Shown: positions 9,575 through 44,143 of the stretch, piece by piece | Numbering within the stretch: position 1 is the stretch's first letter | How the letters are laid out: each line of letters starts with the position of its first letter | Assembly: GCF_009931435.1 (NCBI RefSeq) | Contig: NZ_CP043414.1 | Direction: 5' to 3' (one strand) | Length of the DNA stretch: 64,000 bases | Source: Escherichia coli | Lineage (GTDB): Bacteria; Pseudomonadota; Gammaproteobacteria; Enterobacterales; Enterobacteriaceae | Notes under the pieces: model-generated | Database searches by the model: none | What the model was told of the DNA's origin: nothing | The model's input: the letters and a program-made list of their open reading frames with translations, nothing else | Translations under genes and position numbers: made by a program

Positions 9575-9638
9575 TGCTTCAGGGCCCCAGTAAAGGGGCT
9601 CTGCTATCAATTTGCCATTTCAATTACGCGAAAATTAT

Positions 9639-10619: not shown

Positions 10620-10689
10620 GCGTTCATTAATTTGATTTATTTGCATCCATCAACGCTTTTAACTGCTCCGGCGTGCGGCACTATAATGG

Positions 10690-26144: not shown

Positions 26145-26146
26145 GA

Positions 26147-29005
26147 TTAACCCTCCGCTCCGGTGATAACAGCAATTACCTGAATGTAGGGTTCTTTTTC
26201 AGTCGTCATGGTGTCCTCAATCCATTCAATATAGCTGTCAAAATTGTGTTCGATTTCGCGTTGTCTCTGCTCTTTACGGCTCTGCTTAACTGACAATTGC
26301 TGTTTGTTATCGGCAAAATCCAGCTCAAGTTGGCTCAACTGCCGCCCACGCAAAACGTCCAGCTTTTGCAGATGCTCATTCAGTTGCTGGTTAATGTGCG
26401 TTTCAAACGCATTCCGATCATGGATGAATACCTCCCGGGCATGAGCAATAGCCGCTTCCAGTAAATCCTGCTGGCGCTGGTGATTACGATCTTTACCGCC
26501 GCTGTTAGTCAGCTTGTTACTCAACTGCGGATGACGTTGTAAAAACTCAGCAAATGGCTGACTGCCGATTAGCGATTCACGGTTAAAGCTCACCACTATC
26601 CACGGGTTCACCATCGGATGTGATTTACGGTTCGGGAATAACCCGGAAAGAATGAAGTGATCTTCATCGGGTTCAAGCAGGTATGGCAGACGGATAACCG
26701 GTGCCTGATGACGACCAAAAGCCGAAGAGATTTTATCGTCCAGCCACTGCACTACCGGGTTGATTTGCCAGAGATACTGCACATCGGGCCAGGCATGTTG
26801 CTCACCGCGAGCGCGTGCAATCGCGTCGGTGATGACGGTTTTATCCTGACTTAAATAGAGCTGCCAGTTCTCCGGGGCGATTTCAGGCGGTAGCTGGTTG
26901 AAGCGGCGGCGTAACTCCTCCGGTGCCACCAGCGACAAGGTATTATCAGGCAAGGTTTCATACTGGATAGTTTGACCACTGGCTTTCAGGTAACCCAATG
27001 CTCTTTCGCAGTACGCCTGTTCGCTGGCAAACAAGCTGGTGTCTGTTTCGGTAACCATTGAGGCATCGCTGGAAACCGCACTGCATATTTCGCCAAACAG
27101 ATCATGTTCGGCGCTTTCCGAGACGTTGCTGTTCAGCAGTTGATCAAACAGGCTGGCACCATCATCCTGCATCATGAACTCTGCAACCTGCTCTTCTTCC
27201 TCTTCCTGGGTAAATTTGCCGGTAAACTCCGAACTGTCCCCAATGTTCTTCTGCGCCTGTTCGTCTTTGTTGATCAACACTTCCAGTACGCGCATATCGC
27301 CATTGATCTGCGGTTCGCTGGCCTCGGTAAGCAGATAGCGGATTTGAGGCTGATGTTTTTGCCCATAGCGGTCAATACGCCCGTTACGTTGCTGGAATAC
27401 CATCAACGACCACGGAATATCAAAGTGAATCATTTTGTGGCTAAGGTGATGCAGGTTGATCCCTTCAGATGCCACATCCGAACAAACCAGAAGACGCAAC
27501 GGCGACTGCGTTTTACCAAAGGCTTCTACGGTTTCCATCAACACCGTATCGCCCTGATCGCCGCGCAGCGTGGCGATCTGATCATCTTTCAATTTCAGAT
27601 CCGCTCGCAGTTGCTGTTCGAGGAACTCCAGCGTTTTAATGCTTTCGGTGAAGATCACCAGGCGATCTTCCGTGTTATTGGCTTTCCAGGCGAGGTCTTT
27701 TCGGATGGTGTCGAGCAGCAACTGGTATTTGCTAAACTGGCTGGCATCAATGTTATTCAGCGCCAACAGCAATGACTCCAGTTCGTTGATCTGGCTCTGG
27801 CTATTATGATCTTTACGGCTCTCAAGACGCTTCAGACGATTAGCCACTACGCTGGCACACGCCATCGGGCTGGAAAATAGCGCTTTTTCGAGGGTTATCT
27901 TGAACAGACGACCTTTGTTAGACTGGGCCTGTTCATCGTCATCATCACGGAACTGACTCTCAACCAGGCGACGGTATGCTTCTTCTTCGGCACCGGATGC
28001 CAGGCGAGTCAGTTTGACAATATTGCGCTCGGGGAACTCGCCAGACATCTGATCTTTCACGTCTTTTTTGAAGCGACGGACAACCAGATTTTTATCGGCA
28101 AAGTCGGCGTATTCATACTCTTTCGGGTTGGCGATCGCCGTCGGGTCAAGCATGTTCATCAGGCTGGCAAAACTTTCAGCTTTACCATCATGCGGCGTTG
28201 CTGAAAGCATAATCAGCGTATCGCTGCGCCCGGCGAGCAGTTTTGCCAGTTTACTGCGTAACGAACTGGTTCCACGTTCTGCGACGTTATGGGCCTCATC
28301 AATGACAATAATATCCCACCAGGCATTTTCCAGATGGTGACGATATTCAATATCTTGTTTCAGCGTATCGATGGAGATAATGGTCTTGTCAAAATAGTGG
28401 AACGGGTTGTGGTTGGTAGGGATGCGGTTACGCACTTTTTGTAAACCAGCAGAATCCAGGCGGGTCAATGGGATCGCAAAACGGCTCCAGAACTCCTTCT
28501 GGAATTGTGTCAGCATCGATTTAACCGCCAGAACCAGAATACGTTTTCCGCGCCCACGACGGATCAGTTCCGAAACCAGAATACCCGCTTCCAGCGTTTT
28601 ACCCAGACCGACAGCGTCGGCAATGAGTATCCGCTGACGCGGTTGTGCCAGCGCCATCCGCGTAGGATCGAGCTGAAACGGCATGGAATCCATCGCCGCC
28701 AGATGTCCAAAATGGACTTTACTGTCTGTCGGTACGCGTTGGCGTAACTGACTTTCAATATACAACTGTGCCGCCTGATAATTGGCGGATTCATCTTCCA
28801 CCAAATGCGTTTTTGCGGGATCAAGGATCTCTACTTTTTGTTCCAGTTTGGTCAGAAATAACCCTTCTTTACCGCGCACCAGCTCTGAAATACCATCGCA
28901 GGTCAGCAAATACCCACCATCACCACTGTCATCCGCCCGGCGAATACGCCATTCGGCATCACGAATAACCACCCGCATACCAGGTGCATAATTTTGCTTA
29001 TTCAT
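26147..29005 (-). CDS. SNF2/RAD54-family helicase (DrmD-like), first gene of the DISARM-like operon
   Basis: ADAVGLGKTLEAG (motif I), IVIDEAHNV (DEAH), LMLSATPHDG (motif III), C-terminal QQRNGRIDRYGQK (motif VI). Preceded by a 223-bp intergenic region containing inverted repeats. Confidence 0.75.
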   Translation of the reverse strand: MNKQNYAPGMRVVIRDAEWRIRRADDSGDGGYLLTCDGISELVRGKEGLFLTKLEQKVEILDPAKTHLVEDESANYQAAQLYIESQLRQRVPTDSKVHFGHLAAMDSMPFQLDPTRMALAQPRQRILIADAVGLGKTLEAGILVSELIRRGRGKRILVLAVKSMLTQFQKEFWSRFAIPLTRLDSAGLQKVRNRIPTNHNPFHYFDKTIISIDTLKQDIEYRHHLENAWWDIIVIDEAHNVAERGTSSLRSKLAKLLAGRSDTLIMLSATPHDGKAESFASLMNMLDPTAIANPKEYEYADFADKNLVVRRFKKDVKDQMSGEFPERNIVKLTRLASGAEEEAYRRLVESQFRDDDDEQAQSNKGRLFKITLEKALFSSPMACASVVANRLKRLESRKDHNSQSQINELESLLLALNNIDASQFSKYQLLLDTIRKDLAWKANNTEDRLVIFTESIKTLEFLEQQLRADLKLKDDQIATLRGDQGDTVLMETVEAFGKTQSPLRLLVCSDVASEGINLHHLSHKMIHFDIPWSLMVFQQRNGRIDRYGQKHQPQIRYLLTEASEPQINGDMRVLEVLINKDEQAQKNIGDSSEFTGKFTQEEEEEQVAEFMMQDDGASLFDQLLNSNVSESAEHDLFGEICSAVSSDASMVTETDTSLFASEQAYCERALGYLKASGQTIQYETLPDNTLSLVAPEELRRRFNQLPPEIAPENWQLYLSQDKTVITDAIARARGEQHAWPDVQYLWQINPVVQWLDDKISSAFGRHQAPVIRLPYLLEPDEDHFILSGLFPNRKSHPMVNPWIVVSFNRESLIGSQPFAEFLQRHPQLSNKLTNSGGKDRNHQRQQDLLEAAIAHAREVFIHDRNAFETHINQQLNEHLQKLDVLRGRQLSQLELDFADNKQQLSVKQSRKEQRQREIEHNFDSYIEWIEDTMTTEKEPYIQVIAVITGAEG

Positions 29006-29228
29006 CGGTTTTTCTGTCTATTTGGGGCAGTGGCGGTAACGTCATCCTGAAAAATGTGGCGCGGCACACTGCGATAAAAAAGAGGGCCTTAAAGATATCA
29101 TGAAGGCCCCCGGCAAAGTGACAAAATGGGAGGGAATGCGCATAAATTGCGCATGATTTTCAAACAAAAATTATTAAAAAGTGAGCTGGGTCAACTCCCC
29201 TGGAAGATATCCCCAGGGGAGCAATTAT
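29006..29228. promoter_or_regulatory. Intergenic region between druE-like and the SNF2 gene with two perfect inverted repeats (putative terminator and operator/promoter)
   Basis: CTCCCCTGG-aagatatc-CCAGGGGAG at 29195..29221 lies 8 bp beyond the druE-like stop. ATGCGCA-taaat-TGCGCAT at 29136..29154 is a second palindrome. AT-rich sequence follows toward the SNF2 start. Confidence 0.45.
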
Positions 29229-32200
29229 TTATCCAGCGATAACATAACTCCTAAGGTCATTACCCGGGGCAACAGCTCGCGCTCGCGTGTTTGCCAGCCG
29301 TTCAACTTGCTGCGGTACTCGCAGAGCAAAATCAAAGAAGGTGTCTTCAATACAGCGCCAGTAGCTAAGCCCCATGTCGAGCAGGACATAATGCTGACTG
29401 CCATCGCTGAAGGTGACTGTCAGTTCTCGTCCATGCTCCGTACTCTGGTTATCCCCCGTTAACCAGCTAATTGCTCCCGGCCACGCAGGCCCCAGATATC
29501 CTTCTTCAAGTAAAGTGGTCACAACCTGCTGACGATCTTCCTCATTAAGCCACGCGTTATAGAGAGCGTCGTGTTGGCGAGAGTTGTAATCCAATTTTTT
29601 GACGCAAACAGTGAGGCTGGCACGTTCCGCCATTCCCTGTTCAACCAGCTCAGTTAAGATTTCACCTAACAAACGCGCCGTGAATGGGCTATTAAGATAA
29701 CGATCGCTGTACTCAACATGCGTTATCTCTTTGTGGCGGGTAAATGCCTGCTTCCAGCCAGCGTGCTGTTGCGTGACTAACGACCAGAAACGCGAACCAA
29801 ACCCTTCCAGCGGCCCGTCCAGTTGCTCGCAGAGGTTGATGCGCACCGCCCCGGTGGGTAAGGCGGGCAGTAAATCTTCTGCACTTAAGGTCTGACCCGA
29901 GAAGGTTTTTCCGGACGTTCCTTTAAGTGTCACTACTGGTGAGGACGCACTTTGTCCCCATAATTCACCAGGTGCAACGGTAGCGCTGTCGTCTGCGGCC
30001 CACTGTTGGCTTTGCCCTTCGCGAGTCACCTGCGCAAGCCAGCGCCCCTTTCCTTGCATGAGTTGCGCAGTGGCAATGGATTTCACTTGTAAGCGCCCTC
30101 CCGGCATCGCCGCCAACGCGGAAAGCTGATGTCTGGAGCTATCAGTTAAGTTTGCCAACGGCGTGGCCACCAGCAACTCAACATGCCCACCGGAGGAGGC
30201 AAACTGGAGCAACTCTTTAAATAATGGCCATTGGGCAAAATCCCACTGTTCCTGCGGCCCCGCAAGAACCAGCGAGCAGGAGTCATAAATCTCGCTGTTC
30301 AGGCATTGCGCAATACGTAAACTCAGCGGGTTAGTTTCAACCCGGCTACCATCGCCGAAGTACTGATATTCTGGCGCGAGGTTAAGTCGCTGCAACCGTA
30401 CATTGGTAAGCAGGGTTAATGCATGGTGACGATCTAATCTGTTGACATAATGCTGACTGTCGTAGCTGAGCAAGCAGTGGTGACAGAATTTATCGCAACT
30501 GCAATCGAGCAATTTTCTGGCGTAATTAAAGACATCAGCCCAATGGTCGATCAATTGCACTGCATAACCTGCACCACCCGCATTATTGTCGTAAATGAAG
30601 ATGGAATATCCGGTATAGCCATTGATATCGCGCGCTTGCTGCGTCGTCACGCCCAGCTCAGTATTTTCGATACCCAATTTATGCGCTAACCCTTCACGCA
30701 AAGCGACCGCAAGGGATCGCGCGGCAACCTCATCACGGATCAACAGGCCATTATCATCATTGAGTTGCAGCTCAACCATATCTGTACGACTGCTATACCC
30801 CAACCACAGATCTTTATGCACATGACCGTGGCACAATTTATTGCTCCCCTGACGATCGTTACTGCCCCCTCGCAACAGGTAATGCGTATTTTCCCGCTCT
30901 GGGTTCTTTAGATTTTCAGGGGTACGCTGGGGTTGAGTTTGAGATTCTGCCCGACCACATGAGAGGCAAATTGCGTAGCCGTGCCCAAATTCCCCTTCAC
31001 TGAAGTGGAACAATTCCCCACTATGGCTAAAACGGTAACGTCCTAGCCCAGCATCGGGTAAAGAAACCCACACCGAAGACGGTACAAGAACACGTGGATC
31101 TTTCCAGGGAAGTTGTGCAGGCATGGATACATCATTATGTGCCTGATAACGAATATCTGTCGCAAAACCAACAGGCTGTAAATAACGCTTCACATCAAGT
31201 TGCTGTATATCCGCTTTGCAGTGACTACATTCGACAGGATGGGTAGCACTGGTTGCCCCCGCACCACATTTACGGCAATGCCAGAACCACGGAATATGAT
31301 GATCGCCTGACAGCTCCTGCCCGCTGGCAAGTACCTTGCCAAGCATAATGCCCGAGGAACGATATACTTTTCCGCCCAATACCACATCTGCACCAGGCGC
31401 ATACTCGCGTAATGCTGTAGGTAGATCACGGCTGGGCAATTTTTCAATACGACGAGAAAAGCTTTCTCCCCCTTCATTAGGGTCAGCCTGAGTAGCTTTT
31501 ATTGCGCGACGTTTTTCCAGCTCATCTGCCGTCAGATAATTGAAATTGACGACACCAACCGGGAAACCATGCCCCGGCAGGAACGCTTCACTAATGAGTT
31601 TAGAAAACAGATATGCACCGCGATAATCACGAAGCTGATAAGCGATGGCTTTACCTGCTGGCGTTTCTTCCCACGCGCTGTTATCCGCTTTCAACGCTTC
31701 GATATTTTCCAACAGTATCGCAAGTTGGCTTCTCCAGCGGATATCAACCTGCTGCATCATTGCTTGTGTGCGGGTCAAGAGCTGGGTTGCCGTCAATGAC
31801 ATCAGGACGGTTCCCTGAGTAAGGCGTTTAAGTTTATCCGCTAGCTGATCGGCCTGGTTATTTAACCAATGGAGAAAACGAAGACACTGGCTCTCATCAC
31901 CTTCAAAGAACCATTTGCAACTCAGTTTTGTCGCATCAGGAACTTCAGCTCGTAAAAACAGACCTAAAACCAGGGCATTAACATGTCGTTGAACAATACT
32001 GCTGCTCCCAAAACGAACCCGTGGCGCACTGGCAGTAGTGTTGAACGCCCAGAGGGGGTCTTTGAATACCTCCATTCCATGCGCCGTGTTTTTACATAAC
32101 GTAATGGCAGCAGATGCACTCTCTCCACGTCGACCCGCGCGGCCTGCACGCTGCAAATAATTTGCCGGAGCTGGAGGAACGTTGTTCATTGCCACCAAAC

Positions 32201-35200
32201 TCATACCACCAATGTCCACCCCCATCTCCATGGTCGTGGAGCAGTTCAGCACATTAACTTTGCCTGACTTAAATTGTTTTTCATTAAACTGGTTCTGCTC
32301 AGGCGTTCTCTGCGCAGAGTGTTCCTCCAGACGATACCAGCTATCTTTCAGGGCCAGTCGGTCGCTGCGAGTAGACCATAATCCTTCCTCGCGGGCATGT
32401 TGAATCAGCGCATTACTTTCCAGCCACTCCAGACGTTCTTCTCGGGCGATTTCTCCACCACCAGACAAACGCCAGTGACGTACAGGAAGCTCAGGCATTT
32501 CAATCAACACTGCTTTTTCAGGTGCAATTTCTTTGCTACCCGGCAAATACGGAGAGTATCCCAGTAACGTGACGTCTAACGCACGTCGAGTATAGGGGCA
32601 ACGCCACACTTGCTTTGGACTGTAAAATTCAGCTTGTTGTTTAATATCCAGCTGATAACCCGACTCAAACTGACGTAAGCAGGGTCGAATTGCATCCCAG
32701 ACCTCAATCATTAAGTGGTTAACTAACGATTTCCAGTGAGCCTGCTCAGGTTGTATTGCCGGAAAGACTGCAATTAATAGCTTAATGACCCGGTTATAAT
32801 GGCGATCGCGTATTTGTGGCCAAAGTTGATCACGTTTCTGCCCTTTGTTTTTTTTATCTGGACCCTGCAGCATTTTTACCGGGAAACGAGCCCCCATCCA
32901 GCGAGGGTATTGCTCGTTTTCGTAAAAAACGGCACTGTTTTCACGTATAAAGAAATCAAGAGTAATCTTCAATAAATTACGCCATTCCGCTAATTGCTTA
33001 TCGGGATCGGGTAATAATGTCTTCCAGTCCTGCGGGCAGGTTGTAACTTTATCAATAAATGGATAGTGAATGGCTACCAGACCCAGACTTTCGAGGGTCC
33101 AGGCATTTTTAGGGCGGCGACCAAACTCACTGTATAAACAAAAATCTGCAAACTGTTGTTTAGTAAGATCAAGCCCAGACAATTCTTTAAAACTGCCTCT
33201 CATTCTATCGGCAAGGTCCACACTGCCAACCAGCTGTTCAGACAGTGTTTGCCATGACATGGTTTTCTTCTGCTGATTGCCAGAGTTAGCCTGGAGTATT
33301 TGCATCGCTTCAGCATGATCCGGGCTTAAGGAACTCACCATCGGCTCGATAATTTTAAGTGCCTGAATGTCCGCCGGGCTAAGCTCTTCATTAGCAACCA
33401 TCGCTTTTTTCAGCGCGTCAATAGAGTTTTTTAAAGGAAGGATAGAAAACTGGGCAATAAAACTCTCTAACAATGCGCAGTGTGCCGGGCTGAGCTTTGC
33501 TGATGGCTCATTAATATTGGCCAGCTCCTGGTAGCAAAGAGCTCGCAACGTCGCTTTATCGGCATCCTGCTGTAAGCGGGCAGAAATGCGGGCAGTGCCC
33601 TGACGTGAATCCGTAAAGGTGAGCAGACGTCGACCATTAAACGGTCCTAACTGCTCTTCTCTTGTCTGCGGTAATGGTGAAAACTCCAGCAGAGTAGGAA
33701 TAATTTCATTTAAAAAAAAGGGCGCGCCAAGTCGAAGCGGACGGAATAAAGGATTATTTTTTCGTTGGGTGTCACCACAGCAAACACAAGCAAAGGAATT
33801 ATTACGTCCCTCACCTCGAGATTCCGGTCTTAACAGGTTTATTTCATAGTGCTTTTGCGCTTCACTATCAATTTTCCCCGCCGTCGTTTCTTCCAGTGAA
33901 ATGATATATTTTTCACCATCGCTCGCAATCAGACGATCAAATTGAGAGTTATTGTCTAATTCGTCGTTGTCTTCATCTTCAGAATAAACATCTACATCAA
34001 GAGCAAACTCATCCACTTCGGCAGCGGCGGGTTGCGCTACCAACCAGTTCGTTCCATCACCGCGCATCTCCTCTTTGGCAGACAAATAAGCTGAACCACA
34101 CCCGGAGCAACGTAAAACTTCAAATACCGGCGCACCACAGTCACAATATTGGCGCTGCTCAAACCATACCTGACCAAATGGCCAGTCACTCTGATTTAAT
34201 TCATGTGCTTTATGTGAGCATTGTTTGTTTGAACATGCCCATAGACCCGCCAGTGTTCTGATAAATCCATGCATACGTAATGGCGTAAAAGCCAGTTCAC
34301 CTTCTCGCGATCTTGCCATTAGATCGAGGAGTTGCAGTAGCTCACGGTGATTAATATCTGGCCAGGTTCTTCTGGCAACATTGAGCAACTCACTCAAACG
34401 TACTGCCTGCCGTCCGGGATGAGTTAACGCCTGACGCAATTGCTGGGCCACACGGTAATGACAAAGCTGTTGGTAAAGATCCTGAGGGCTCAGAGATTTA
34501 AGAGAAGTTAAAGATGTGGGGTATTCATGACGAATCAGCGACTCCGATACCCGCGGTATTTGTCGATAACCGCGAACCACTTTGACATCACGTTCTGTAA
34601 CGCCCGCGAGATCAGCGACAAATTTAGCAAGCTCCTTATTACCTTCAGGAGAGTCTTCACCAATAGTGGCAGAGGTCGCGATAATCTGCACAGGTTTATC
34701 TGTGCCGGGTCCAACATTGAAAGCCTGCATAACACGACGTAAAAGCAGCGCTAACTCAGCAGCCTGAGAACCAATATAACTATGGGCTTCATCCAGGACG
34801 ATATACTTTAACATCCCCTGAGACTTTTCGATGATTGGGGCATCTTTACGACGAATCAGCATATATTCCAGCATGGTGGTATTCGTCACCATGATGGAAG
34901 GTGGTGCTTCGTAAATGGCTTCCCGACTCAAAGCTTGTTCAGGTACTTTCAACTGATCTTCCTGAATTTCGTATTTGGTATGCCGGGTTTCGCCATTATA
35001 TAGCGCGAAGCGTATTTTCCCCTTAAATCCGCGCGTCCATTCGCGAAGCCGCTCCTGTTGACTGTTAATTAATGCATTTAACGGATACAAGAAAATAGCT
35101 TGTGTCCCTGTTAGTGACTGGCGGGTCGATTTTTGCTGACGAATAAGATCTTCCAGAACCGGTACCATAAAGCATTCTGTTTTCCCGGATCCCGTACCGC

Positions 35201-35552
35201 TGCTCACTAACAAGGATTTTTTGTCTTCCAGAATTGTTCGCCACGCAGTGAGTTGATGACGAAATGGCACTGGCGCTTTGCTCAATGCATCAACCAGCGG
35301 GCTGGAGATCAGCTTGTCCCGCAAATCCTCCATTGTTTCATCCGCAGGCATCCAGCCGAATGTACTTTCGAATACCGGGTCTGCAAGCAGTGACCCCTCC
35401 TGACCGGGAGGCTGAAAATATTGTGATTCCAGATAATGAGTCAACGACTTGCTCCGCAATGCCAACTGACTTACCACCGACCTCACCGCACGCTGATGAA
35501 GCTGATTTAGAAGTGGCGCATAATGCAGTTGCTGAACGTCCATCAATGACAT
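29229..35552 (-). CDS. druE: Giant 2107-aa DEAH helicase/DUF1998 protein, DruE-like (Druantia signature protein)
   Basis: SGTGSGKTECFMVPVL (I), VLDEAHSYIGSQ (II), ATSATI (III), QRAGRAGRRGES (VI), then Cys/His clusters CLSCGRAE...CHGHVHKD and DCSCDKFCHHCLLSY (DUF1998-like). Same architecture as the 2113-aa protein. Start overlaps the stop of the upstream 1119-aa gene by 10 bp. Confidence 0.6.
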   Translation of the reverse strand: MSLMDVQQLHYAPLLNQLHQRAVRSVVSQLALRSKSLTHYLESQYFQPPGQEGSLLADPVFESTFGWMPADETMEDLRDKLISSPLVDALSKAPVPFRHQLTAWRTILEDKKSLLVSSGTGSGKTECFMVPVLEDLIRQQKSTRQSLTGTQAIFLYPLNALINSQQERLREWTRGFKGKIRFALYNGETRHTKYEIQEDQLKVPEQALSREAIYEAPPSIMVTNTTMLEYMLIRRKDAPIIEKSQGMLKYIVLDEAHSYIGSQAAELALLLRRVMQAFNVGPGTDKPVQIIATSATIGEDSPEGNKELAKFVADLAGVTERDVKVVRGYRQIPRVSESLIRHEYPTSLTSLKSLSPQDLYQQLCHYRVAQQLRQALTHPGRQAVRLSELLNVARRTWPDINHRELLQLLDLMARSREGELAFTPLRMHGFIRTLAGLWACSNKQCSHKAHELNQSDWPFGQVWFEQRQYCDCGAPVFEVLRCSGCGSAYLSAKEEMRGDGTNWLVAQPAAAEVDEFALDVDVYSEDEDNDELDNNSQFDRLIASDGEKYIISLEETTAGKIDSEAQKHYEINLLRPESRGEGRNNSFACVCCGDTQRKNNPLFRPLRLGAPFFLNEIIPTLLEFSPLPQTREEQLGPFNGRRLLTFTDSRQGTARISARLQQDADKATLRALCYQELANINEPSAKLSPAHCALLESFIAQFSILPLKNSIDALKKAMVANEELSPADIQALKIIEPMVSSLSPDHAEAMQILQANSGNQQKKTMSWQTLSEQLVGSVDLADRMRGSFKELSGLDLTKQQFADFCLYSEFGRRPKNAWTLESLGLVAIHYPFIDKVTTCPQDWKTLLPDPDKQLAEWRNLLKITLDFFIRENSAVFYENEQYPRWMGARFPVKMLQGPDKKNKGQKRDQLWPQIRDRHYNRVIKLLIAVFPAIQPEQAHWKSLVNHLMIEVWDAIRPCLRQFESGYQLDIKQQAEFYSPKQVWRCPYTRRALDVTLLGYSPYLPGSKEIAPEKAVLIEMPELPVRHWRLSGGGEIAREERLEWLESNALIQHAREEGLWSTRSDRLALKDSWYRLEEHSAQRTPEQNQFNEKQFKSGKVNVLNCSTTMEMGVDIGGMSLVAMNNVPPAPANYLQRAGRAGRRGESASAAITLCKNTAHGMEVFKDPLWAFNTTASAPRVRFGSSSIVQRHVNALVLGLFLRAEVPDATKLSCKWFFEGDESQCLRFLHWLNNQADQLADKLKRLTQGTVLMSLTATQLLTRTQAMMQQVDIRWRSQLAILLENIEALKADNSAWEETPAGKAIAYQLRDYRGAYLFSKLISEAFLPGHGFPVGVVNFNYLTADELEKRRAIKATQADPNEGGESFSRRIEKLPSRDLPTALREYAPGADVVLGGKVYRSSGIMLGKVLASGQELSGDHHIPWFWHCRKCGAGATSATHPVECSHCKADIQQLDVKRYLQPVGFATDIRYQAHNDVSMPAQLPWKDPRVLVPSSVWVSLPDAGLGRYRFSHSGELFHFSEGEFGHGYAICLSCGRAESQTQPQRTPENLKNPERENTHYLLRGGSNDRQGSNKLCHGHVHKDLWLGYSSRTDMVELQLNDDNGLLIRDEVAARSLAVALREGLAHKLGIENTELGVTTQQARDINGYTGYSIFIYDNNAGGAGYAVQLIDHWADVFNYARKLLDCSCDKFCHHCLLSYDSQHYVNRLDRHHALTLLTNVRLQRLNLAPEYQYFGDGSRVETNPLSLRIAQCLNSEIYDSCSLVLAGPQEQWDFAQWPLFKELLQFASSGGHVELLVATPLANLTDSSRHQLSALAAMPGGRLQVKSIATAQLMQGKGRWLAQVTREGQSQQWAADDSATVAPGELWGQSASSPVVTLKGTSGKTFSGQTLSAEDLLPALPTGAVRINLCEQLDGPLEGFGSRFWSLVTQQHAGWKQAFTRHKEITHVEYSDRYLNSPFTARLLGEILTELVEQGMAERASLTVCVKKLDYNSRQHDALYNAWLNEEDRQQVVTTLLEEGYLGPAWPGAISWLTGDNQSTEHGRELTVTFSDGSQHYVLLDMGLSYWRCIEDTFFDFALRVPQQVERLANTRARAVAPGNDLRSYVIAG

Positions 35553-38500
35553 ACTCCTGCTTGTTCAAAATAATATTGATAGATTACCCCTAATTGCTGT
35601 GGGGCTTGCTGATAGTGAAATTCAAAAAGCGCAGACAGTTGATGTATCAGGTTATTATCTTTTTGGGTTAACAGCGCTGCGACTAACATCAAATTAAAAC
35701 GTTTTTCAAGCCGTGAGTGATATTTATCTTCAATCCAAAGCTTATTAAAAACAGATTTTAACTCTGGAGTAATAGCACTAGACCAAAGTTCTTTAGGGAA
35801 GATACTGATACGCCCAAAGCTGTCGGGGTTCCTTAATAGCATCTGTTTAGCTTCATTAAACTGCTCACGACTAACAGTTGGCAATACATCACAACCGGTT
35901 GGTAGGCTCTCACTATATGTAAGTAACATATTCGCAATGGGAGCCAGCCGACGATCGATATGTGCACGATGGTTCATAAAAGCAATAAAGGGTTGCAATA
36001 TATGTAATGCTAATGTTTTATCGTTAATCTGTTTTTCCAGATAAGTCCAACATTTTTGGAAAACATCTTTCCAGATTGAAACGGGAATCCATCCCCATGA
36101 AAAGGGTAATTCTTCCTGTATATCATAAATCGTATCGCTATCACCAGAAAGACATGATGATATTAACAATTGAACAACCACGCGGTAATTACTCGAAATA
36201 CCTCTGAACAAGTCCAGATCCAGCAAGGATAAGCCATTATTCATTTTGTACTTCTTAATATACTCTGTTAATAAACAGCAATAATTTTGCAATGGGTTGT
36301 TATCTATTTCAAAAATTAGCTCATTAAAATTTTTTTTGCGCTGTTCTGGGTCTGCTTCGCATAGAGCATTTAGTAATAAATCATTTGTCTGCAATACAGG
36401 TAGCATCCATTTAATTACTGGTGCAATGCGAGCTGTACCATCAAGTTTTCCCACAATTAACCATGGACTATCCTGAACATTCAGAGCTGAAAGATCATAA
36501 GCAAATTCATCTTTTTTTAGCAATGATTTGTGTAAGCCAGGATCCTTAAGAGAAATAGCATCAACAACCAGTTCGTCTATTCTATTTGCAGGAAAAACAA
36601 CAGAATTTTTTATATCAACCAGCAACCCTTGATCGTGTTCAATAAAACTACCATCGTAGCGTTTAATATTGAGTGTTGCTTTATCCTTTCCAAATCTGTC
36701 AGAGTAAAAATCAACACATAATGTACTATTGCTGTTCCATGCACATGCCAGCATAGCATTTAGCAAATTATAGTTCTCATAAAGTGAAATTTGTTGTAAT
36801 TTGTCATTGCGTCCTGATAAAAGAGGAAGGTCGGCATGTAAATAACGGAATTTTTCAGCTACTGGATTTTCATCCAATAACTCGATATTAAGATATCCTC
36901 TTCCAGCACATGATATGGTTAATAACTCAGCATCTATTCCATGCAAATGTGCTATAGATGCCACACCATCAAAATGAACAGAACCATCATTAGTTACAAA
37001 TCGGCCACCGCTAACCGGCTTAGGTAATAATAGTTTAAGATTAGAACCATCTTTCCAGGAGACCCGTAAATCAACGGTATTTTCCAGCATCTGCGATGAA
37101 TTATAATAAATAGCACACTCGTTTTGTGAATAATCGGACTTAAGTGTTACTTTTTCATTGTTTGAATATTTATCAATTCTAGTATCCGTTATACCAGAAA
37201 GCATAATAATGCCTTGCTGAGCACTCTCAGGTATAATATTAATATCGAAGTCTGCTGGTAAAACTACAACTTTACCGCTAAATAAAACCTCATCATTAAC
37301 TATTCGCCGGACTTCTATCTGTCCTTTTGGCATTTCTGATGCGACAGAATACCAGGCATTGTTACCTGAACGAATGGAACGCCAAAAAAGTTCTTTCTCC
37401 GGTACAATGCCATATTGCAGATCCTTTTTCCAACCGATCTTCGGCCAGGCTCGATGGACAGGATAATCCGATTTAACCAGTTCAACTTCTGTCGATTTAA
37501 TATAATATTCAATCGCAGAATCATAAAGTTGCTGGGTGCGAATTGTACAAACAGCACCATCATGTAAAACAACGCTAAATACTCCACTTATTTTAGTTAA
37601 GCTGCGTTCACTGTTTTTCAGCAACCTTGGGATATCAAACTCACCTTCTCCACTAATATCTAAATGGCTATTTTTCGGTAGCGAAATAAACAGAGCATTT
37701 AGCCTGGAACTCACAGACCCCATACCGACAAGTTTTAGCTGCGATTCACTCTCATTCATCGCTTCAAAAACCCAGGGGAGTTCTTCAGTAAGTTCATAAC
37801 CGCCTTTTGGAATTGTGTGGCCTAACAGAATTGGACCTTCATGAAGCGACAACGAGATTTCGGCCATTGCATCTGCACCAGAGAGCTTTTGCATCGCAAT
37901 AGGTAATAACTCGACCCGCCAATCTTGCTGCTCATAACGGCTTAGCATTGCCAACCTTGCCCCGCCATTTCTCCATTTTCCTGAAATGATGAGTCGGGTC
38001 TGCTCCGGCTGAATATGGCATTCAAACAAAGAGGTTAACTGTTCTGTACGCATTGTGGCCGGGAATCGGAACCGGGCATCACAATACCAACTGTCATCAA
38101 CATCGACCCAGATTCTTTCAACCTGAAGACTACTTGCACTGCGTATTTCAGAAGATTGAGAAAGTAATCGCCTTACAATCTCTGCAGCATTCGCTTCGGG
38201 GAGAACGAGTGGAAGTTGAAGATGCCAGTCTGGAGAGAGCTTACGTAATGCAGAAACGGGATCACTGCTTTGAGGTGGATGCTCACTAAGTAATCGGCAG
38301 AGAGTCTCGCAGAATTCACCGGCTATTTCATAGACCAGTTCGTTTTGCATTGTGACAGGAATCGTATCGCCTAATTCTTGTGCAATTTTAGCGGCAGGAT
38401 ATTGAGATGCTTGCCCACGAAGCGCCTGATATATCCTTCTGAAATAGGTAATCAAATAACCGCTCTCATTTTCAATCATGCGGATAGGTAAACCACCTTC

Positions 38501-38902
38501 ACAAGCCAGTGTATGCAGATAACCCGAAGCTTGCCCCAGGTTTCTTATCTTTCTTTTCCAGTAGCGAATGCCATCATTAACCAGCTTCTGTCGATGAACA
38601 TACGGAACTTTCCAGTCAATAGAATCTAAAATTGTGTCCCATTTAGGGTGTCCGACCGTATGAGTCCGGCGGATAAACTCTGCGGCATATATGCTAAATA
38701 GAACATCGCTATAGGAAATGAATATCGTTCTTGGATAACTACGAGGGGCATATGTACGCAGTAGTTCTGCCAAACTTTCGTACTCTGTATCAGTACAACG
38801 GTAAGCATATAACGCCCGTCCATCAGCTCCGGATAATGAACGGCGACTAAAAAACATGTTAAGCCATTGCAAAAGTGGGTTAACTGGAGTTTTCACAAGC
38901 AA
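35543..38902 (-). CDS. druH: 1119-aa protein of unknown function, DruH-like partner of DruE
   Basis: Large low-GC ORF with no recognisable catalytic motif, translationally coupled to the DruE-like gene. The pairing and size agree with the two-gene Druantia type III layout as I recall it; assignment is by context only. Confidence 0.5.
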   Translation of the reverse strand: MLVKTPVNPLLQWLNMFFSRRSLSGADGRALYAYRCTDTEYESLAELLRTYAPRSYPRTIFISYSDVLFSIYAAEFIRRTHTVGHPKWDTILDSIDWKVPYVHRQKLVNDGIRYWKRKIRNLGQASGYLHTLACEGGLPIRMIENESGYLITYFRRIYQALRGQASQYPAAKIAQELGDTIPVTMQNELVYEIAGEFCETLCRLLSEHPPQSSDPVSALRKLSPDWHLQLPLVLPEANAAEIVRRLLSQSSEIRSASSLQVERIWVDVDDSWYCDARFRFPATMRTEQLTSLFECHIQPEQTRLIISGKWRNGGARLAMLSRYEQQDWRVELLPIAMQKLSGADAMAEISLSLHEGPILLGHTIPKGGYELTEELPWVFEAMNESESQLKLVGMGSVSSRLNALFISLPKNSHLDISGEGEFDIPRLLKNSERSLTKISGVFSVVLHDGAVCTIRTQQLYDSAIEYYIKSTEVELVKSDYPVHRAWPKIGWKKDLQYGIVPEKELFWRSIRSGNNAWYSVASEMPKGQIEVRRIVNDEVLFSGKVVVLPADFDINIIPESAQQGIIMLSGITDTRIDKYSNNEKVTLKSDYSQNECAIYYNSSQMLENTVDLRVSWKDGSNLKLLLPKPVSGGRFVTNDGSVHFDGVASIAHLHGIDAELLTISCAGRGYLNIELLDENPVAEKFRYLHADLPLLSGRNDKLQQISLYENYNLLNAMLACAWNSNSTLCVDFYSDRFGKDKATLNIKRYDGSFIEHDQGLLVDIKNSVVFPANRIDELVVDAISLKDPGLHKSLLKKDEFAYDLSALNVQDSPWLIVGKLDGTARIAPVIKWMLPVLQTNDLLLNALCEADPEQRKKNFNELIFEIDNNPLQNYCCLLTEYIKKYKMNNGLSLLDLDLFRGISSNYRVVVQLLISSCLSGDSDTIYDIQEELPFSWGWIPVSIWKDVFQKCWTYLEKQINDKTLALHILQPFIAFMNHRAHIDRRLAPIANMLLTYSESLPTGCDVLPTVSREQFNEAKQMLLRNPDSFGRISIFPKELWSSAITPELKSVFNKLWIEDKYHSRLEKRFNLMLVAALLTQKDNNLIHQLSALFEFHYQQAPQQLGVIYQYYFEQAGVCH

Positions 38903-39113
38903 CCTGCCTTCCTTTGATACAATTCGTAACAGGTTACTATCATCATAAAAAAGCTCAACCCGATGAACTCGCTAAAAATGAGACAAATCATTTATATCTC
39001 GAAAAAACTTGTTACAATCATGAGCGCTACACCGAACTTAACCATATAAATTATGTGCGTTTTGTTTATTTTTTAAACAATTACAACTATCCATTATTTA
39101 CACAGGTATCAAA

Positions 39114-40766
39114 ATGTTAGCGCAGCTTTTTGAGCAGTTGTTTCAATCGATAGACTCTACACTGATCACCAATATTTTCATCTGGGCTGTTATATTCGTA
39201 TTTTTATCAGCGTGGTGGTGTGACAAAAAAAATATACATAGTAAGTTTAGAGAATATGCTCCAACCTTAATGGGGGCATTAGGTATTCTGGGTACTTTCA
39301 TTGGTATTATTATTGGGTTACTCAATTTTAATACTGAAAGTATTGATACCAGCATCCCCGTATTATTAGGCGGCCTAAAAACAGCATTCATTACAAGCAT
39401 TGTAGGTATGTTTTTTGCCATTTTATTTAATGGAATGGATGCTTTCTTTTTTGCCAATAAACGAAGTGCGTTAGCAGAAAATAACCCTGAATCTGTTACA
39501 CCTGAACATATCTATCATGAATTAAAAGAGCAGAACCAGACTCTGACTAAATTAGTCTTGGGTATTAACGGTGATAGTGAAGGTTCTCTTATTGCTCAAA
39601 TAAAATTACTACGTACTGAGATTAGCGATTCCTCGCAGGCACAATTAGCTAATCACACTCATTTCAGTAATAAGCTTTGGGAACAACTTGAACAATTTGC
39701 AGATCTAATGGCAAAAGGTGCTACAGAACAAATTATTGATGCTTTACGACAAGTCATTATTGATTTTAATGAAAATTTAACTGAACAGTTTGGTGAAAAC
39801 TTTAAAGCACTTGATGCCTCTGTAAAAAAACTTGTTGAGTGGCAGGAAAATTATAAAACGCAAGTTGAGCTGATGTCAGAACAATATCAACAAAGTGTCG
39901 AGTCTCTGGTTGAAACAAAAACTGCGGTTGCCGGGATTTGGGAAGAATGTAAAGAAATTCCTCTGGCTATGTCTGAACTGCGTGAAGTGCTTCAGGTGAA
40001 CCAACATCAAATCAGCGAACTCTCCCGCCATTTAGAAACCTTTGTCGCTATCCGCGATAAAGCTACAACCGTATTACCTGAAATACAGAACAAAATGGCT
40101 GAAGTGGGTGAACTGCTGAAATCCGGAGCTGCAAATGTTAGTGCATCTCTTGAGCAAACCAGCCAGCAAATACTTCTTAATGCAGATTCAATGCGCGTGG
40201 CCCTGGATGAAGGTACCGAAGGATTCAGACAATCGGTTACCCAAACACAACAAGCATTTGCCTCGATGGCACATGATGTCAGCAATTCCTCCGAAACTCT
40301 AACCAGCACGTTAGGTGAAACAATTACTGAAATGAAACAAAGTGGTGAAGAATTCCTGAAGTCACTAGAGTCGCACTCGAAAGAATTGCATAGAAATATG
40401 GAACAAAATACGACTAATGTAATTGATATGTTCAGTAAGACTGGTGAAAAGATTAACCATCAACTATCCAGTAATGCCGATAATATGTTTGATTCAATCC
40501 AGACATCATTTGATAAGGCAAGTGCAGGGCTGACTTCTCAAGTCAGAGAATCAATTGAAAAATTTGCTCTATCCATCAACGAGCAGTTACATGCTTTTGA
40601 GCAAGCAACTGAACGTGAGATGAACCGTGAAATGCAATCATTAGGTAATGCTCTGCTTTCAATCAGCAAAGGTTTTGTCGGTAACTATGAAAAACTTATT
40701 AAAGATTACCAAATAATTATGGGACAGTTACAAGCATTAATTTCTGCTAATAAACATCGAGGGTAA
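39114..40766 (+). CDS. zorA: ZorA-like MotA/ExbB/TolQ-family membrane protein with a long coiled-coil tail (Zorya)
   Basis: N-terminal hydrophobic helices (IFIWAVIFVFLSAWW; MGALGILGTFIGIIIGLL; FITSIVGMFFAILFNG) followed by about 400 aa of polar, heptad-like low-complexity sequence. Immediately followed by a MotB/OmpA-like gene and an HNH gene. Confidence 0.65.
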   Translation: MLAQLFEQLFQSIDSTLITNIFIWAVIFVFLSAWWCDKKNIHSKFREYAPTLMGALGILGTFIGIIIGLLNFNTESIDTSIPVLLGGLKTAFITSIVGMFFAILFNGMDAFFFANKRSALAENNPESVTPEHIYHELKEQNQTLTKLVLGINGDSEGSLIAQIKLLRTEISDSSQAQLANHTHFSNKLWEQLEQFADLMAKGATEQIIDALRQVIIDFNENLTEQFGENFKALDASVKKLVEWQENYKTQVELMSEQYQQSVESLVETKTAVAGIWEECKEIPLAMSELREVLQVNQHQISELSRHLETFVAIRDKATTVLPEIQNKMAEVGELLKSGAANVSASLEQTSQQILLNADSMRVALDEGTEGFRQSVTQTQQAFASMAHDVSNSSETLTSTLGETITEMKQSGEEFLKSLESHSKELHRNMEQNTTNVIDMFSKTGEKINHQLSSNADNMFDSIQTSFDKASAGLTSQVRESIEKFALSINEQLHAFEQATEREMNREMQSLGNALLSISKGFVGNYEKLIKDYQIIMGQLQALISANKHRG

Positions 40767-40772
40767 TCGATC

Positions 40773-41480
40773 ATGGATAAGATTATAGGGAAACAATTAC
40801 CTAAAAAAGATCAAGATAATGAACACTGGGTATCCATGTCAGACCTAATGGCAGGGCTGATGATGGTTTTTATGTTCATATCTATTGCTTATATGCACTA
40901 CGTACGTATTGAAAAAGAAAAAATTAAAGAAGTTGCCGTAGCCTACGAGAATGCTCAGTTACAGCTTTATAATGCTCTGGATATTGAGTTTGCAAAGGAT
41001 TTACAAGACTGGGATGCAGAGATCGATAAACAGACTCTGGAGGTTCGATTTAAATCACCGGATGTTTTATTTGGCTTAGGAAGCACAGAGCTAAAACCAA
41101 AGTTTAAACTCATTCTTGACGACTTCTTTCCTCGCTACCTAAAAGTTCTAGATAATTATCAGGACCATATTACTGAAGTCCGCATTGAAGGTCACACAAG
41201 TACTGACTGGACAGGAACAACGAATCCTGATATTGCTTATTTTAATAATATGGCACTATCACAAGGTCGTACACGTGCAGTATTACAATACGTTTATGAC
41301 ATAAAAAATATCGCGACACACCAACAATGGGTTAAAAGTAAATTTGCCGCAGTAGGTTATTCATCTGCACATCCCATTCTTGATAAAACCGGCAAGGAGG
41401 ATCCTAATCGCTCTCGTCGTGTCACCTTCAAAGTTGTAACAAATGCCGAATTGCAGATTAGAAAGATTATTCAGGAGTAA
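40773..41480 (+). CDS. zorB: ZorB-like MotB/OmpA-family peptidoglycan-binding protein (Zorya)
   Basis: Single N-terminal transmembrane helix carrying an Asp (SMSDLMAGLMMVFMFISIAY), with a C-terminal OmpA-like motif (NMALSQGRTRAVLQYV...SRRVTF). Separated from zorA by 6 bp. Confidence 0.65.
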   Translation: MDKIIGKQLPKKDQDNEHWVSMSDLMAGLMMVFMFISIAYMHYVRIEKEKIKEVAVAYENAQLQLYNALDIEFAKDLQDWDAEIDKQTLEVRFKSPDVLFGLGSTELKPKFKLILDDFFPRYLKVLDNYQDHITEVRIEGHTSTDWTGTTNPDIAYFNNMALSQGRTRAVLQYVYDIKNIATHQQWVKSKFAAVGYSSAHPILDKTGKEDPNRSRRVTFKVVTNAELQIRKIIQE

Positions 41481-41483
41481 GAG

Positions 41484-42587: not shown

Positions 42588-42796
42588 ATTCCGAAACTCC
42601 GTGAAAGTTAAGACTTTCACGGAAGATAAATAAAATTCTCCTGATTTGTGACTCAAATTATAAAAGTCGTTTATGGCATAACTTGTCTGTTTTTTTGGTG
42701 TAATAGGTATAAAGGCATATGCTATGGTTAGCCTTATATTTAAAACTTTCCTCATACGGGTGAAGGTTAAAGCTTGGTAGATAGGTTACAGTCACA

Positions 42797-43406: not shown

Positions 43407-43413
43407 GCGTTCA

Positions 43414-44064: not shown

Positions 44065-44143
44065 GGAGAATGTCCTTATACGTTCTCAGAACAGGCAGCA
44101 AAAAAACAAATGAGATCAAGGTAATATATCTTCACTTGCAGGC

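What the first reader, a model, noticed from the sequence alone, without database searches (positions are those of the whole stretch)
29229..38902. DruH/DruE-like gene pair (Druantia type III-like) adjacent to the DISARM-like operon
A 1119-aa protein with no recognisable motifs is translationally coupled (10-bp overlap) to a 2107-aa DEAH helicase carrying DUF1998-like Cys/His clusters. A giant DUF1998 helicase (DruE) is the hallmark of Druantia, and type III is a two-gene DruH-DruE system. A 223-bp gap containing a hairpin separates this pair from the downstream operon, suggesting an independent transcription unit, although read-through into a single super-operon cannot be excluded from sequence alone. 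Two paralogous giant helicase-DUF1998 proteins within 20 kb is itself notable.
Basis: partly seen in the sequence, partly recalled or inferred. Interest (0 to 1): 0.65.

Follow-up and report, generated by a model that had tools for sequence, protein, structure and literature searches.

The report
Known E. coli Druantia III defence pair

Summary
This is an already described system. Window 35543-38902 (-) encodes DruH and 29229-35543 (-) encodes DruE. Both match the PADLOC DruH3 and DruE3 models end to end (2551 and 2182 bits). DruH also passes NCBIfam NF038336 (YjiT/STY4851/ECs_5259 family).

The proteins are 99.1% and 99.5% identical to those of E. coli ATCC 8739. That druHE operon alone protects MG1655 against 38 phages, and its structures are in the PDB (9TUD, 9TU7). 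About 9% of complete E. coli genomes (505 of 5426) carry the pair. The neighbours are also known: the "DISARM-like operon" is ARMADA II (armABCD) and the divergent operon is Zorya II. Together they form the published OI-172-type defence array.

Two small corrections. DruE probably starts at ATG 35543 (2104 aa, 1-base TGATG overlap) rather than at 35552. The 223-bp gap holds three hairpins, one followed by a U-tract.

Most likely mechanism, taken from the literature: DruE loads on exposed 3' single-stranded or forked phage DNA and unwinds it 3'-to-5'. DruH binds or trims the ssDNA. Phage replication is blocked without killing the cell. Whether DruE's C-terminal PLD nuclease is the effector is still disputed. 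Novelty: already known. Interest: low.

The parts
35543..38902 (-). druH (1119 aa from TTG 38902; GTG 38896 is an alternative start). YjiT/STY4851/ECs_5259 family. Per the literature: N-terminal helical domain, six Ig-like domains, C-terminal helical domain.
   Evidence: ORF. PADLOC DruH3 PDLC00041, 2551 bits, profile 1-1117/1117. NCBIfam NF038336, 988 bits against a cutoff of 150. PDB 9TUD, 2567 bits. 1109/1119 identical to ATCC 8739 DruH. ssDNA/ATP pocket residues Y670, N672, H689, Y733, D735, R1031, H1062, R1064 and K1067 all present.
29229..35543 (-). druE (2104 aa from ATG 35543; the longest ORF starts at ATG 35552 and gives 2107 aa). Giant YprA/MrfA-like SF2 DEAH helicase with a Zn-binding MZB (DUF1998) module and two C-terminal PLD-like domains.
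   Evidence: ORF. PADLOC DruE3 PDLC00037, 2182 bits, profile 4-2051/2055. PDB 9TU7, 4880 bits. 2094/2104 identical to ATCC 8739 DruE. Residues whose mutation abolishes defence (G118, G120, D251, E252, R1135, R1138, C1681, C1683, C1687) and the ATP-contacting K121 are all present.
35541..35560 (-). druH-druE junction: AGGAG Shine-Dalgarno box inside the end of druH, the druH TGA stop overlapping the druE ATG (TGATG), and an alternative upstream ATG at 35552.
   Evidence: Sequence read. RefSeq start.
34659..35261 (-). DruE RecA1 lobe (Pfam DEAD/ResIII), with Walker A GSGKT and the DEAH box.
   Evidence: Pfam PF00270, E 6.4e-24. Motifs checked.
32124..32339 (-). DruE RecA2 lobe core (Pfam Helicase_C), with the RAGRAGR motif VI.
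   Evidence: Pfam PF00271, E 2e-12. R1135 and R1138 present.
30471..30710 (-). DruE MZB domain (MrfA Zn-binding domain; the papers cited here call this module DUF1998), carrying the C1681/C1683/C1687/C1690 cluster.
   Evidence: Pfam PF09369, E 7.9e-12. Cysteines checked.
29232..30374 (-). DruE C-terminal region, residues 1724-2104: the tandem PLD-like domains that define subtype III-A. Contains a DRY motif at 1947 and HGR at 2037.
   Evidence: Domain limits from 10.64898/2026.05.13.724758, applied to a 99.5% identical protein. Motifs. Pfam itself reports no PLD hit. Under purifying selection, dN/dS 0.06-0.25.
38903..39113 (.). 211-bp AT-rich spacer between the divergent druH and zorA2 genes. 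It presumably carries the druHE and zorABE promoters.
   Evidence: Sequence. Promoter-like hexamers on both strands (consensus matches only). The proximal ~150 bp upstream of druH is kept in a K. pneumoniae plasmid where Zorya is replaced by IS1.
29194..29222 (-). Hairpin 1, starting 4 nt after the druE stop codon: 12-bp stem, 5-nt loop. The T-runs begin 14 nt downstream.
   Evidence: Fold at -21.2 kcal/mol. The stem arms are identical in five loci; the one variable base, in the K. pneumoniae plasmid, falls in the loop.
29136..29154 (-). Palindromic repeat ATGCGCA-ATTTA-TGCGCAT in the druE-armA gap. It could be an RNA hairpin or a protein-binding site. Function unknown.
29072..29111 (-). Hairpin 3 (9-bp G+C-rich stem, 11-nt loop) followed by CTTTTTTAT: the most terminator-like element of the gap. 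A promoter-like TTGTCA-16-CATGAT match (29124..29097) overlaps it.
   Evidence: Function is inferred only.

Best explanation
The pair is an intact chromosomal copy of the E. coli type III-A Druantia anti-phage system, druH-druE. It lies in the conserved Zorya II / Druantia III / ARMADA II defence array of the leuX-nanM region, the array described on O-island 172 of EHEC EDL933 and in ATCC 8739.

**Shown here.** Family membership, intactness, near-identity to the tested and solved proteins, conservation of every residue reported as essential, and purifying selection on all domains.

**How it most likely works (from 2025-2026 papers on near-identical or orthologous systems).**
- DruE is a dimeric SF2 DNA helicase of the YprA/MrfA type. 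It loads on exposed 3' single-stranded DNA or on duplex-ssDNA junctions and forks, such as occur in injected, replicating or recombining phage genomes. It unwinds the duplex 3'-to-5' using ATP.
- DruH is an Ig-domain-rich protein that binds ssDNA in a pocket competed by ATP. In one study it trims 3' ends as an exonuclease. It joins DruE on forked DNA.
- Phage DNA is then kept unwound, immobilised or degraded, so replication fails. The infected cell survives, so this is direct, non-abortive defence.
- Both genes are required.

**Inferred or contested.** Whether the final blow is DNA degradation by DruE's PLD2 nuclease, sequestration of unwound DNA, or hand-over to neighbouring nucleases such as ZorE or ArmC.

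**Confidence.** About 0.97 for the identity and about 0.55 for the mechanistic sequence as worded.
For: - **Profile matches.** Full-length matches to DruH3 (2551 bits) and DruE3 (2182 bits). NF038336 at 988 bits against a cutoff of 150.
- **Distribution.** 505 of 5426 complete E. coli genomes carry at least 80% of the pair at 95-99.5% identity.
- **Identity to the tested system.** Proteins are 2094/2104 and 1109/1119 identical to ATCC 8739. Solved structures 9TU7 and 9TUD match at 4880 and 2567 bits, and ties them to the ATCC 8739/EDL933 study.
- **Domains.** Pfam DEAD, Helicase_C and MZB.
- **Functional residues.** All residues reported as essential or ligand-contacting are conserved, except two DNA-contact positions.
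- **Selection.** dN/dS is 0.07-0.09 for DruE and 0.13-0.15 for DruH.
- **Neighbours.** Zorya II and the four ARMADA II genes.
- **Literature.**
  - druHE alone protects against 38 phages, is non-abortive, and needs the helicase and MZB motifs.
  - 3'-to-5' unwinding from 3' tails or forks.
  - DruH binds ssDNA and is inhibited by ATP.
  - DruH is a 3'-5' exonuclease and forms a fork-dependent DruE-DruH complex.
  - Both genes are essential in the native EHEC host.
Against: - **No experiment on this strain.** Nothing here was tested directly; function is transferred from proteins that are 99% identical.
- **The papers disagree on the effector step.**
  - PLD-site mutants abolish defence, and DruE degrades ssDNA, in the Pseudomonas aeruginosa system.
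  - In E. coli, DruE(1-1723) lacking both PLD domains still protected against Bas26, and no nuclease activity was seen.
- **DruH's role is also unsettled.** It is variously called an exonuclease, an ATP-gated ssDNA binder, or a protein-sensing, dimer-activated nuclease.
- **Two reported DNA-contact residues differ in the window protein** (N1536 is T, K97 is Q).
- **Pfam does not detect the PLD domains**.
Confidence: 0.9

Rival explanations
1. druHE and armABCD are not two systems. They form one six-gene, co-transcribed super-system in which Druantia proteins cannot act, or cannot act fully, without ARMADA proteins. DruE's PLD domains might serve that partnership.
For: - All six genes are co-directional, and the druE-armA spacer is 223 bp and 99% identical in every copy examined. 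That includes IncFIB plasmids of E. coli and K. pneumoniae, one of which has lost Zorya but kept Druantia plus ARMADA.
- DruE and ArmC are paralogues.
- Strong phage-specific synergy between Druantia III and ARMADA II has been published.
- The PLD domains are dispensable for stand-alone defence yet are under purifying selection.
- No transcript mapping was found in the papers read.
Against: - druHE alone on a low-copy plasmid protects MG1655, which lacks ARMADA, against 38 phages.
- A strain with ARMADA only, and a strain with Druantia only, each retain activity.
- Rare E. coli genomes carry only one of the systems.
- Type III Druantia from P. aeruginosa works as a two-gene unit.
- The gap contains a G+C-rich hairpin followed by a U-tract.
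Confidence: 0.08
2. The 2104-aa protein is a housekeeping 'motility-regulating DEAH-box RNA helicase', as some RefSeq records now name it. On this reading it controls flagellar gene expression and is not a defence protein.
For: The RefSeq product name appears on the orthologue in several genomes. An earlier report linking DruE (locus tag Z5898) of EDL933 to flagella and motility is cited in 10.64898/2026.05.13.724758.
Against: - The same preprint found no effect of deleting druE on fliC transcript or motility.
- The protein unwinds DNA.
- It lies in a mobile defence island present in only about 9% of E. coli.
- Deleting it sensitises cells to phages.
Confidence: 0.03
3. The pair is a compact DISARM variant: DruE is a DrmA-DrmB-DrmC fusion working with a methyltransferase-based self/non-self mark.
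For: Domain content parallels DrmA (helicase), DrmB (DUF1998) and DrmC (PLD). Weak DrmA hits were found. A DrmMI-like methyltransferase lies 3 kb downstream.
Against: - DrmA models score 35-38 bits over about 50-90 residues, against 2182 bits for DruE3.
- The pair has no methyltransferase of its own. The downstream one belongs to ARMADA II.
- The system is neither toxic nor weakened in a methylation-free E. coli.
- DISARM is reported to unwind with the opposite polarity.
Confidence: 0.02

Closest known systems
Druantia type III-A of E. coli ATCC 8739 / EDL933 (DruH = Z5897/ECs_5259 family; DruE = Z5898); PDB 9TUD and 9TU7-9TUC
   Same: Same two genes in the same order with the same overlap. 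Proteins are 99.1% (DruH) and 99.5% (DruE) identical. Same neighbours (Zorya II, ARMADA II) and the same 223-bp spacer.
   Different: Only 10 amino-acid differences in each protein. The chromosomal surroundings differ: the window matches strain 24A16CRGN010, whereas ATCC 8739 has IS1/IS5 elements and cadCBA on the flanks.
Type III Druantia of Pseudomonas aeruginosa (PaDruH-PaDruE; 10.64898/2026.05.13.724313)
   Same: Two-gene DruH-DruE architecture and the same DruE domain plan with PLD-like C-terminus. DRY and HxR motifs occur in the window protein at a comparable spacing.
   Different: It is an orthologue from another genus; I did not measure the identity. It protects against T2 and T6, whereas E. 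coli III-A does not protect against Tequatrovirus phages. The PLD site is essential there but dispensable in E. coli.
ARMADA type II ArmC (the 2113-aa helicase 14869-21210 in this window)
   Same: YprA-family DEAH helicase with a DUF1998/MZB module and a C-terminal nuclease domain. Similar length. 34% and 23% identity in the helicase lobes.
   Different: It has an HNH-like rather than PLD C-terminus (ZorE-like hit at residues 2019-2096). It works with an SNF2 helicase, a type IIG-like methyltransferase and a UvrD helicase rather than with DruH.
DISARM class 1 (DrmA, DrmB, DrmC, DrmD, DrmMI)
   Same: The helicase, DUF1998 and PLD domain set is shared, and both target DNA ends or ssDNA.
   Different: In DISARM the domains are on separate proteins, a methyltransferase and an SNF2 protein are part of the system, the unwinding polarity is reported as opposite, and there is no DruH.
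Bacillus subtilis MrfA/YprA repair helicase (PDB 6ZNP)
   Same: Shared helicase core, OB and MZB architecture with 3'-to-5' translocation. The PDB hit has E 1.3e-19.
   Different: MrfA is 751 aa and acts in mitomycin repair. It lacks the dimerisation, duplex-binding, double-Zn and PLD domains of DruE and has no DruH partner.

Membership tests
Druantia type III | A giant (about 2000 aa) DruE: SF2 DExH helicase with the DUF1998/MZB zinc module, classifying with type III DruE rather than types I, II or IV. | tested here: met
   PADLOC DruE3 PDLC00037, 2182 bits over 4-2051/2055. DruE1 scores 574 bits, DruE2 359 and DruE4 342. Pfam DEAD, Helicase_C and MZB.
Druantia type III | A DruH gene immediately upstream of druE on the same strand. 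| tested here: met
   PADLOC DruH3 PDLC00041, 2551 bits over 1-1117/1117. NF038336, 988 bits against a cutoff of 150. The stop and start codons overlap.
Druantia type III | No type I or type II accessory genes (DruA-D, DruM, DruF, DruG) in the locus. | tested here: met
   None of the four co-directional downstream genes or the three upstream Zorya genes hits those models. They hit DrmD/REase-MTase IIG/DruE-like/GajB-like models and ZorA2/ZorB2/ZorE2.
Druantia subtype III-A | DruE carries two C-terminal PLD-like domains, which III-B lacks. | tested here: met
   The profile match and the 9TU7 match run to the C-terminus. The protein is 99.5% identical to the ATCC 8739 DruE in which PLD1 and PLD2 were seen by cryo-EM. 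DRY-1947 and HGR-2037 are present. Caveat: Pfam reports no PLD family.
Druantia type III | Confers anti-phage defence that requires both genes. | not testable with these tools
   Shown for 99%-identical proteins in MG1655, ATCC 8739 and EDL933. Not tested for this strain.
DISARM (DrmA/DrmB) | The helicase classifies as DrmA, with a separate DrmB, and the system has its own methyltransferase. | tested here: not met
   Best DrmA hits are 38 and 35 bits over short stretches. Helicase and DUF1998 are fused. The pair contains no methyltransferase.
Zorya II-Druantia III-ARMADA II array (OI-172-type island) | zorA2-zorB2-zorE divergent from druH-druE, followed co-directionally by armA-armB-armC-armD. 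| tested here: met
   ZorA2 999 bits, ZorB2 347 bits and ZorE2 586 bits. The four downstream genes have the SNF2, MTase, YprA-helicase and UvrD profiles in the order described. The window is collinear with ATCC 8739 and strain 24A16CRGN010.

The most novel reading that the evidence does not exclude
The evidence does not exclude that the invariant, strongly structured 223-bp druE-armA spacer is a regulatory switch. It has three hairpins, a palindrome and a promoter-like site buried in a terminator-like stem. It could tune read-through from druHE into armABCD.

It also does not exclude that DruE's PLD domains exist to couple Druantia to ARMADA or Zorya. Those domains are dispensable for stand-alone defence in E. 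coli yet are under purifying selection. On this reading the array would work as one integrated DNA-processing machine rather than as three independent systems.
Probability: 0.15. Interest if true: 0.45.

Novelty: already known. Interest (0 to 1): 0.12.

Why it matters
For the scan, this is a clean positive control: a reader with no tools correctly recognised a two-gene Druantia III system from raw sequence. Biologically it adds nothing new. The same genes, at 99% identity, have been deleted, cloned, mutated and solved by several groups in 2024-2026.

The remaining open questions belong to the field rather than to this locus:
- what finally inactivates the phage DNA;
- what DruH senses;
- why DruE keeps PLD domains that are dispensable in one assay;
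- how Druantia III synergises with ARMADA II and Zorya II.

This strain's allele, with 10 substitutions in each protein and a different ArmB variable segment, could at most serve as one more natural variant.

Tried and rejected
1. **Pfam on DruH.** No significant family. This agrees with the literature that DruH lacks annotated domains.
2. **Pfam on the DruE C-terminus.** No PLD family detected. The III-A assignment therefore rests on near-identity to the solved protein and on motif inspection.
3. **Rfam on 28000-40000 at E <= 0.1.** Nothing found.
4. **Consensus promoter and terminator scan.** Counts were close to the shuffled expectation: 27 promoter-like sites against 18.5 +/- 4.6, and 12 terminator-like sites against 9.5 +/- 3.1. 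These sites are not evidence. The scan missed hairpin 3 because its loop exceeds 8 nt.
5. **Hairpin 1 folded with its flanks (76 nt).** Not unusual against shuffles (z -1.2). Only the whole gap is (z -3.35).
6. **DISARM membership and the 'motility RNA helicase' label.** Both considered and rejected (see rivals).
7. **Searches deliberately not run.** I skipped the large protein-database, metagenome and genome-collection scans and structure prediction. Solved structures and published phylogenies already answer those questions.
Full report
**Observation**

The ORF list shows two minus-strand ORFs at exactly the reported coordinates: 29229..35552 (2107 aa, ATG) and 35543..38902 (1119 aa, TTG). 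A 223-bp gap separates them from the next minus-strand ORF, 26147..29005.

The junction reads GCAGGAGTATGTCATTGATGGAC on the coding strand. The druH stop codon TGA (35545-35543) overlaps an ATG at 35543 by one base.

The AGGAG box is 1 nt from ATG 35552 and 10 nt from ATG 35543. RefSeq annotates the 35543-equivalent start (2104 aa) in two related genomes. Published residue numbers (K121, D251/E252, R1135/R1138, C1681/C1683/C1687) land on the right residues only with that start. So DruE most likely has 2104 aa, and the genes are coupled by a TGATG overlap.

The hairpin after druE is real: a 12-bp stem at -21.2 kcal/mol.

**Identity**

| Test | DruE (2107/2104 aa) | DruH (1119 aa) |
|---|---|---|
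| PADLOC best model | DruE3 PDLC00037, 2182 bits, positions 4-2051/2055 | DruH3 PDLC00041, 2551 bits, positions 1-1117/1117 |
| NCBIfam | no family reaches its cutoff | NF038336 'STY4851/ECs_5259 (YjiT) family', 988 bits, cutoff 150 |
| Pfam | DEAD, Helicase_C, MZB (PF09369) | nothing significant |
| PDB match | 9TU7, 4880 bits | 9TUD, 2567 bits |
| Identity to ATCC 8739 | 2094/2104 | 1109/1119 |

- DrmA models reach only 35-38 bits on the large protein.
- MZB is the MrfA Zn-binding domain; the papers cited here call this module DUF1998.
- The DNA of the pair is 95-99.5% identical to sequences in 545 of 5426 complete E. coli genomes, and 505 of them carry at least 80% of it.
- The 9TU7 and 9TUD entries come from the cryo-EM study of E. 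coli ATCC 8739/EDL933 Druantia III-A (10.64898/2026.05.13.724758).
- Both ORFs are uninterrupted.
- Every residue whose mutation abolished defence is present: G118, G120, D251, E252, R1135, R1138, C1681, C1683, C1687, and C1690.
- The DruH ssDNA/ATP pocket is intact: Y670, N672, H689, Y733, D735, R1031, H1062, R1064, K1067.
- Of 23 listed DruE nucleotide- and DNA-contact residues, 21 match. N1536 is T and K97 is Q here.

**Context**

- *Upstream, divergent.* ZorA2 (999 bits), ZorB2 (347 bits) and ZorE2 (586 bits) form a type II Zorya system at 39114-42587.
- *Downstream, co-directional.* Four genes follow: an SNF2 helicase (952 aa), a type IIG-like methyltransferase (1644 aa), a 2113-aa DruE-like helicase with an HNH-like C-terminus, and a UvrD helicase (704 aa). 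This is the ARMADA type II system armABCD, defined in PMC12458937 and studied in EHEC in 10.1101/2025.09.22.677730.
- *The array.* The three-system array is the published defence island of O-island 172. It was reported in 426 of 3792 E. coli genomes and described as carried by satellite-phage-like mobile elements.
- *Collinearity.* The window is collinear with E. coli strain 24A16CRGN010 at about 99% identity over 9216-58905, apart from a short segment inside armB.
- *The two giant helicases.* DruE and ArmC are distant paralogues: 34% identity over RecA1 and 23% over about 720 aa. This agrees with the published placement of both in the YprA family.

**Is the pair an independent unit?**

I could not map transcripts, and the papers I read contain no transcript mapping.

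Sequence evidence:
- The 223-bp gap folds unusually well as RNA: -66.3 kcal/mol, z = -3.35, and none of 200 shuffles folds as well.
- It has three hairpins: 29222-29194; a palindrome ATGCGCA-N5-TGCGCAT at 29154-29136; and a G+C-rich stem at 29111-29083 followed by CTTTTTTAT.
- The third hairpin looks like an intrinsic terminator. A promoter-like match (29124..29097) overlaps it.
- The gap has the same length and is 99% identical in two E. coli chromosomes, an E. coli IncFIB plasmid and a K. pneumoniae IncFIB plasmid.

Functional evidence from the literature is stronger:
- druHE with its own upstream region protects MG1655 against 38 phages.

I therefore treat druHE as a functionally autonomous system. 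Some read-through into armA remains possible.

**Mechanism**

The following is taken from the literature and applied to this allele by near-identity.

- DruE is a dimeric YprA/MrfA-like SF2 helicase. It unwinds 3'-tailed and forked DNA 3'-to-5' and does not act on blunt duplexes.
- Defence is direct: cultures survive high multiplicity of infection. It does not depend on host methylation.
  - It binds ssDNA in a pocket that ATP competes for.
  - In the P. aeruginosa orthologue it is a Mg-dependent 3'-5' exonuclease that forms a 1:1 complex with DruE on forked DNA.
  - Another study sees a dimer-activated nicking activity and proposes that it senses phage baseplate proteins.
- The effector step is disputed.
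  - PLD-site mutants abolish defence in the Pseudomonas system.
  - E. coli DruE lacking both PLD domains still protects against Bas26, and no nuclease activity was detected.

My own small test used Nei-Gojobori dN/dS between the window and three other copies.
- All domains are under purifying selection.
- In the most divergent comparison (the K. pneumoniae plasmid), the PLD region gives 0.18 against 0.07 for the helicase core. The PLD domains are therefore maintained, though somewhat less tightly. Counts are small (13 non-synonymous and 21 synonymous changes).
- In the same comparison druH has 2.5 times the synonymous divergence of druE (0.22 against 0.089). This fits the published remark that DruH diverges faster, and it suggests recombination between lineages.

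**Comparison and membership**

All sequence-testable criteria for Druantia type III, subtype III-A, are met (see the membership table). DISARM membership fails. The RefSeq label 'motility-regulating DEAH-box RNA helicase' stems from an earlier EDL933 report on DruE (Z5898) that a later study could not reproduce.

That Doron et al. (2018) first defined Druantia types I-III, with type III as DruH-DruE, is from my own knowledge. The papers read here cite that classification.

**Verdict**

The system is already known, experimentally validated and structurally solved at about 99% identity. Interest is low (0.12).

The one thing the evidence leaves open is whether the conserved structured spacer and the PLD domains tie Druantia III functionally to ARMADA II and Zorya II.

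Noticed in passing
window 29006-29228: The druE-armA spacer folds far better than shuffled controls (z -3.35). It contains three hairpins: a palindrome ATGCGCA-N5-TGCGCAT (29154-29136), a terminator-like stem plus U-tract (29111-29072), and hairpin 1 after the druE stop. A promoter-like match overlaps the terminator-like stem. Its length is the same (223 bp) and its sequence 99% identical in two E. coli chromosomes, an E. coli IncFIB plasmid and a K. pneumoniae IncFIB plasmid.
   Followed up: partly
window 12758-29005 (-): The four-gene operon downstream is ARMADA type II: armA SNF2 26147-29005, armB methyltransferase 21210-26144, armC YprA-helicase with an HNH-like C-terminus 14869-21210, and armD UvrD 12758-14872. 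Published work shows it acts against phages and synergises with Druantia III.
   Followed up: partly
window 21780-22839: A segment inside armB is the only part of the array that does not align with close relatives. The break is at 21806-22111 against strain 24A16CRGN010 and at 21780-22839 against ATCC 8739, and ArmB lengths differ (1644, 1640 and 1642 aa). This fits the published note that armB is the variable gene of the island. It is probably the target-recognition part.
   Followed up: no
window 39114-42587 (+): A complete type II Zorya system (zorA2, zorB2, zorE) is transcribed divergently from druH across a 211-bp AT-rich spacer.
   Followed up: partly
window 8413-8950 and 42742-43280; 10558-10673 and 43345-43460: Direct repeats bracket the whole ARMADA-Druantia-Zorya block, about 34.3 kb apart. 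One is a roughly 540-bp piece of nanM (86-96% identical). The other is 116 bp (91% identical); its left copy spans the end of the sialate O-acetylesterase-like ORF (9612-10619) and the sequence just after it. This looks like the scar of insertion or recombination in the nanM-nanS locus.
   Followed up: partly
window 43414-45073: A divergent pair lies next to Zorya. One gene is an HNH endonuclease (216 aa, minus strand). The other is a phosphorothioated-DNA-binding restriction endonuclease (NF045808, 436 bits against a cutoff of 180; plus strand). This is a likely type IV-like restriction module in the same island.
   Followed up: partly
window 45696-47744 (-) and 48422-48506 (-): A 682-aa ORF with no PADLOC or NCBIfam match sits in the lowest-GC stretch of the window (33.5%), directly next to tRNA-Leu(CAA), the classic leuX integration site. 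It is a candidate uncharacterised island cargo gene.
   Followed up: no
window 11594-12244 (+): A uracil-DNA glycosylase family protein (RefSeq name) lies between a transposase remnant and armD. It has no PADLOC or NCBIfam hit. ATCC 8739 has no annotated gene at the corresponding position, where an IS1 lies nearby.
   Followed up: no
L003 (E. coli plasmid pQnrS1_005237) and L004 (K. pneumoniae plasmid NZ_CP031815.1): The array also rides on IncFIB plasmids. 17 PLSDB records match, 7 of them with the full pair and the others with 3'-truncated remnants of the region. The K. pneumoniae copy keeps Druantia III and ARMADA II but has an IS1 in place of Zorya II.
   Followed up: partly
window 29229-38902 versus L004: Synonymous divergence of druH (0.22) is about 2.5 times that of the adjacent druE (0.089) in the same pair of loci. 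This suggests that the two genes have different recombination histories within the clade.
   Followed up: no
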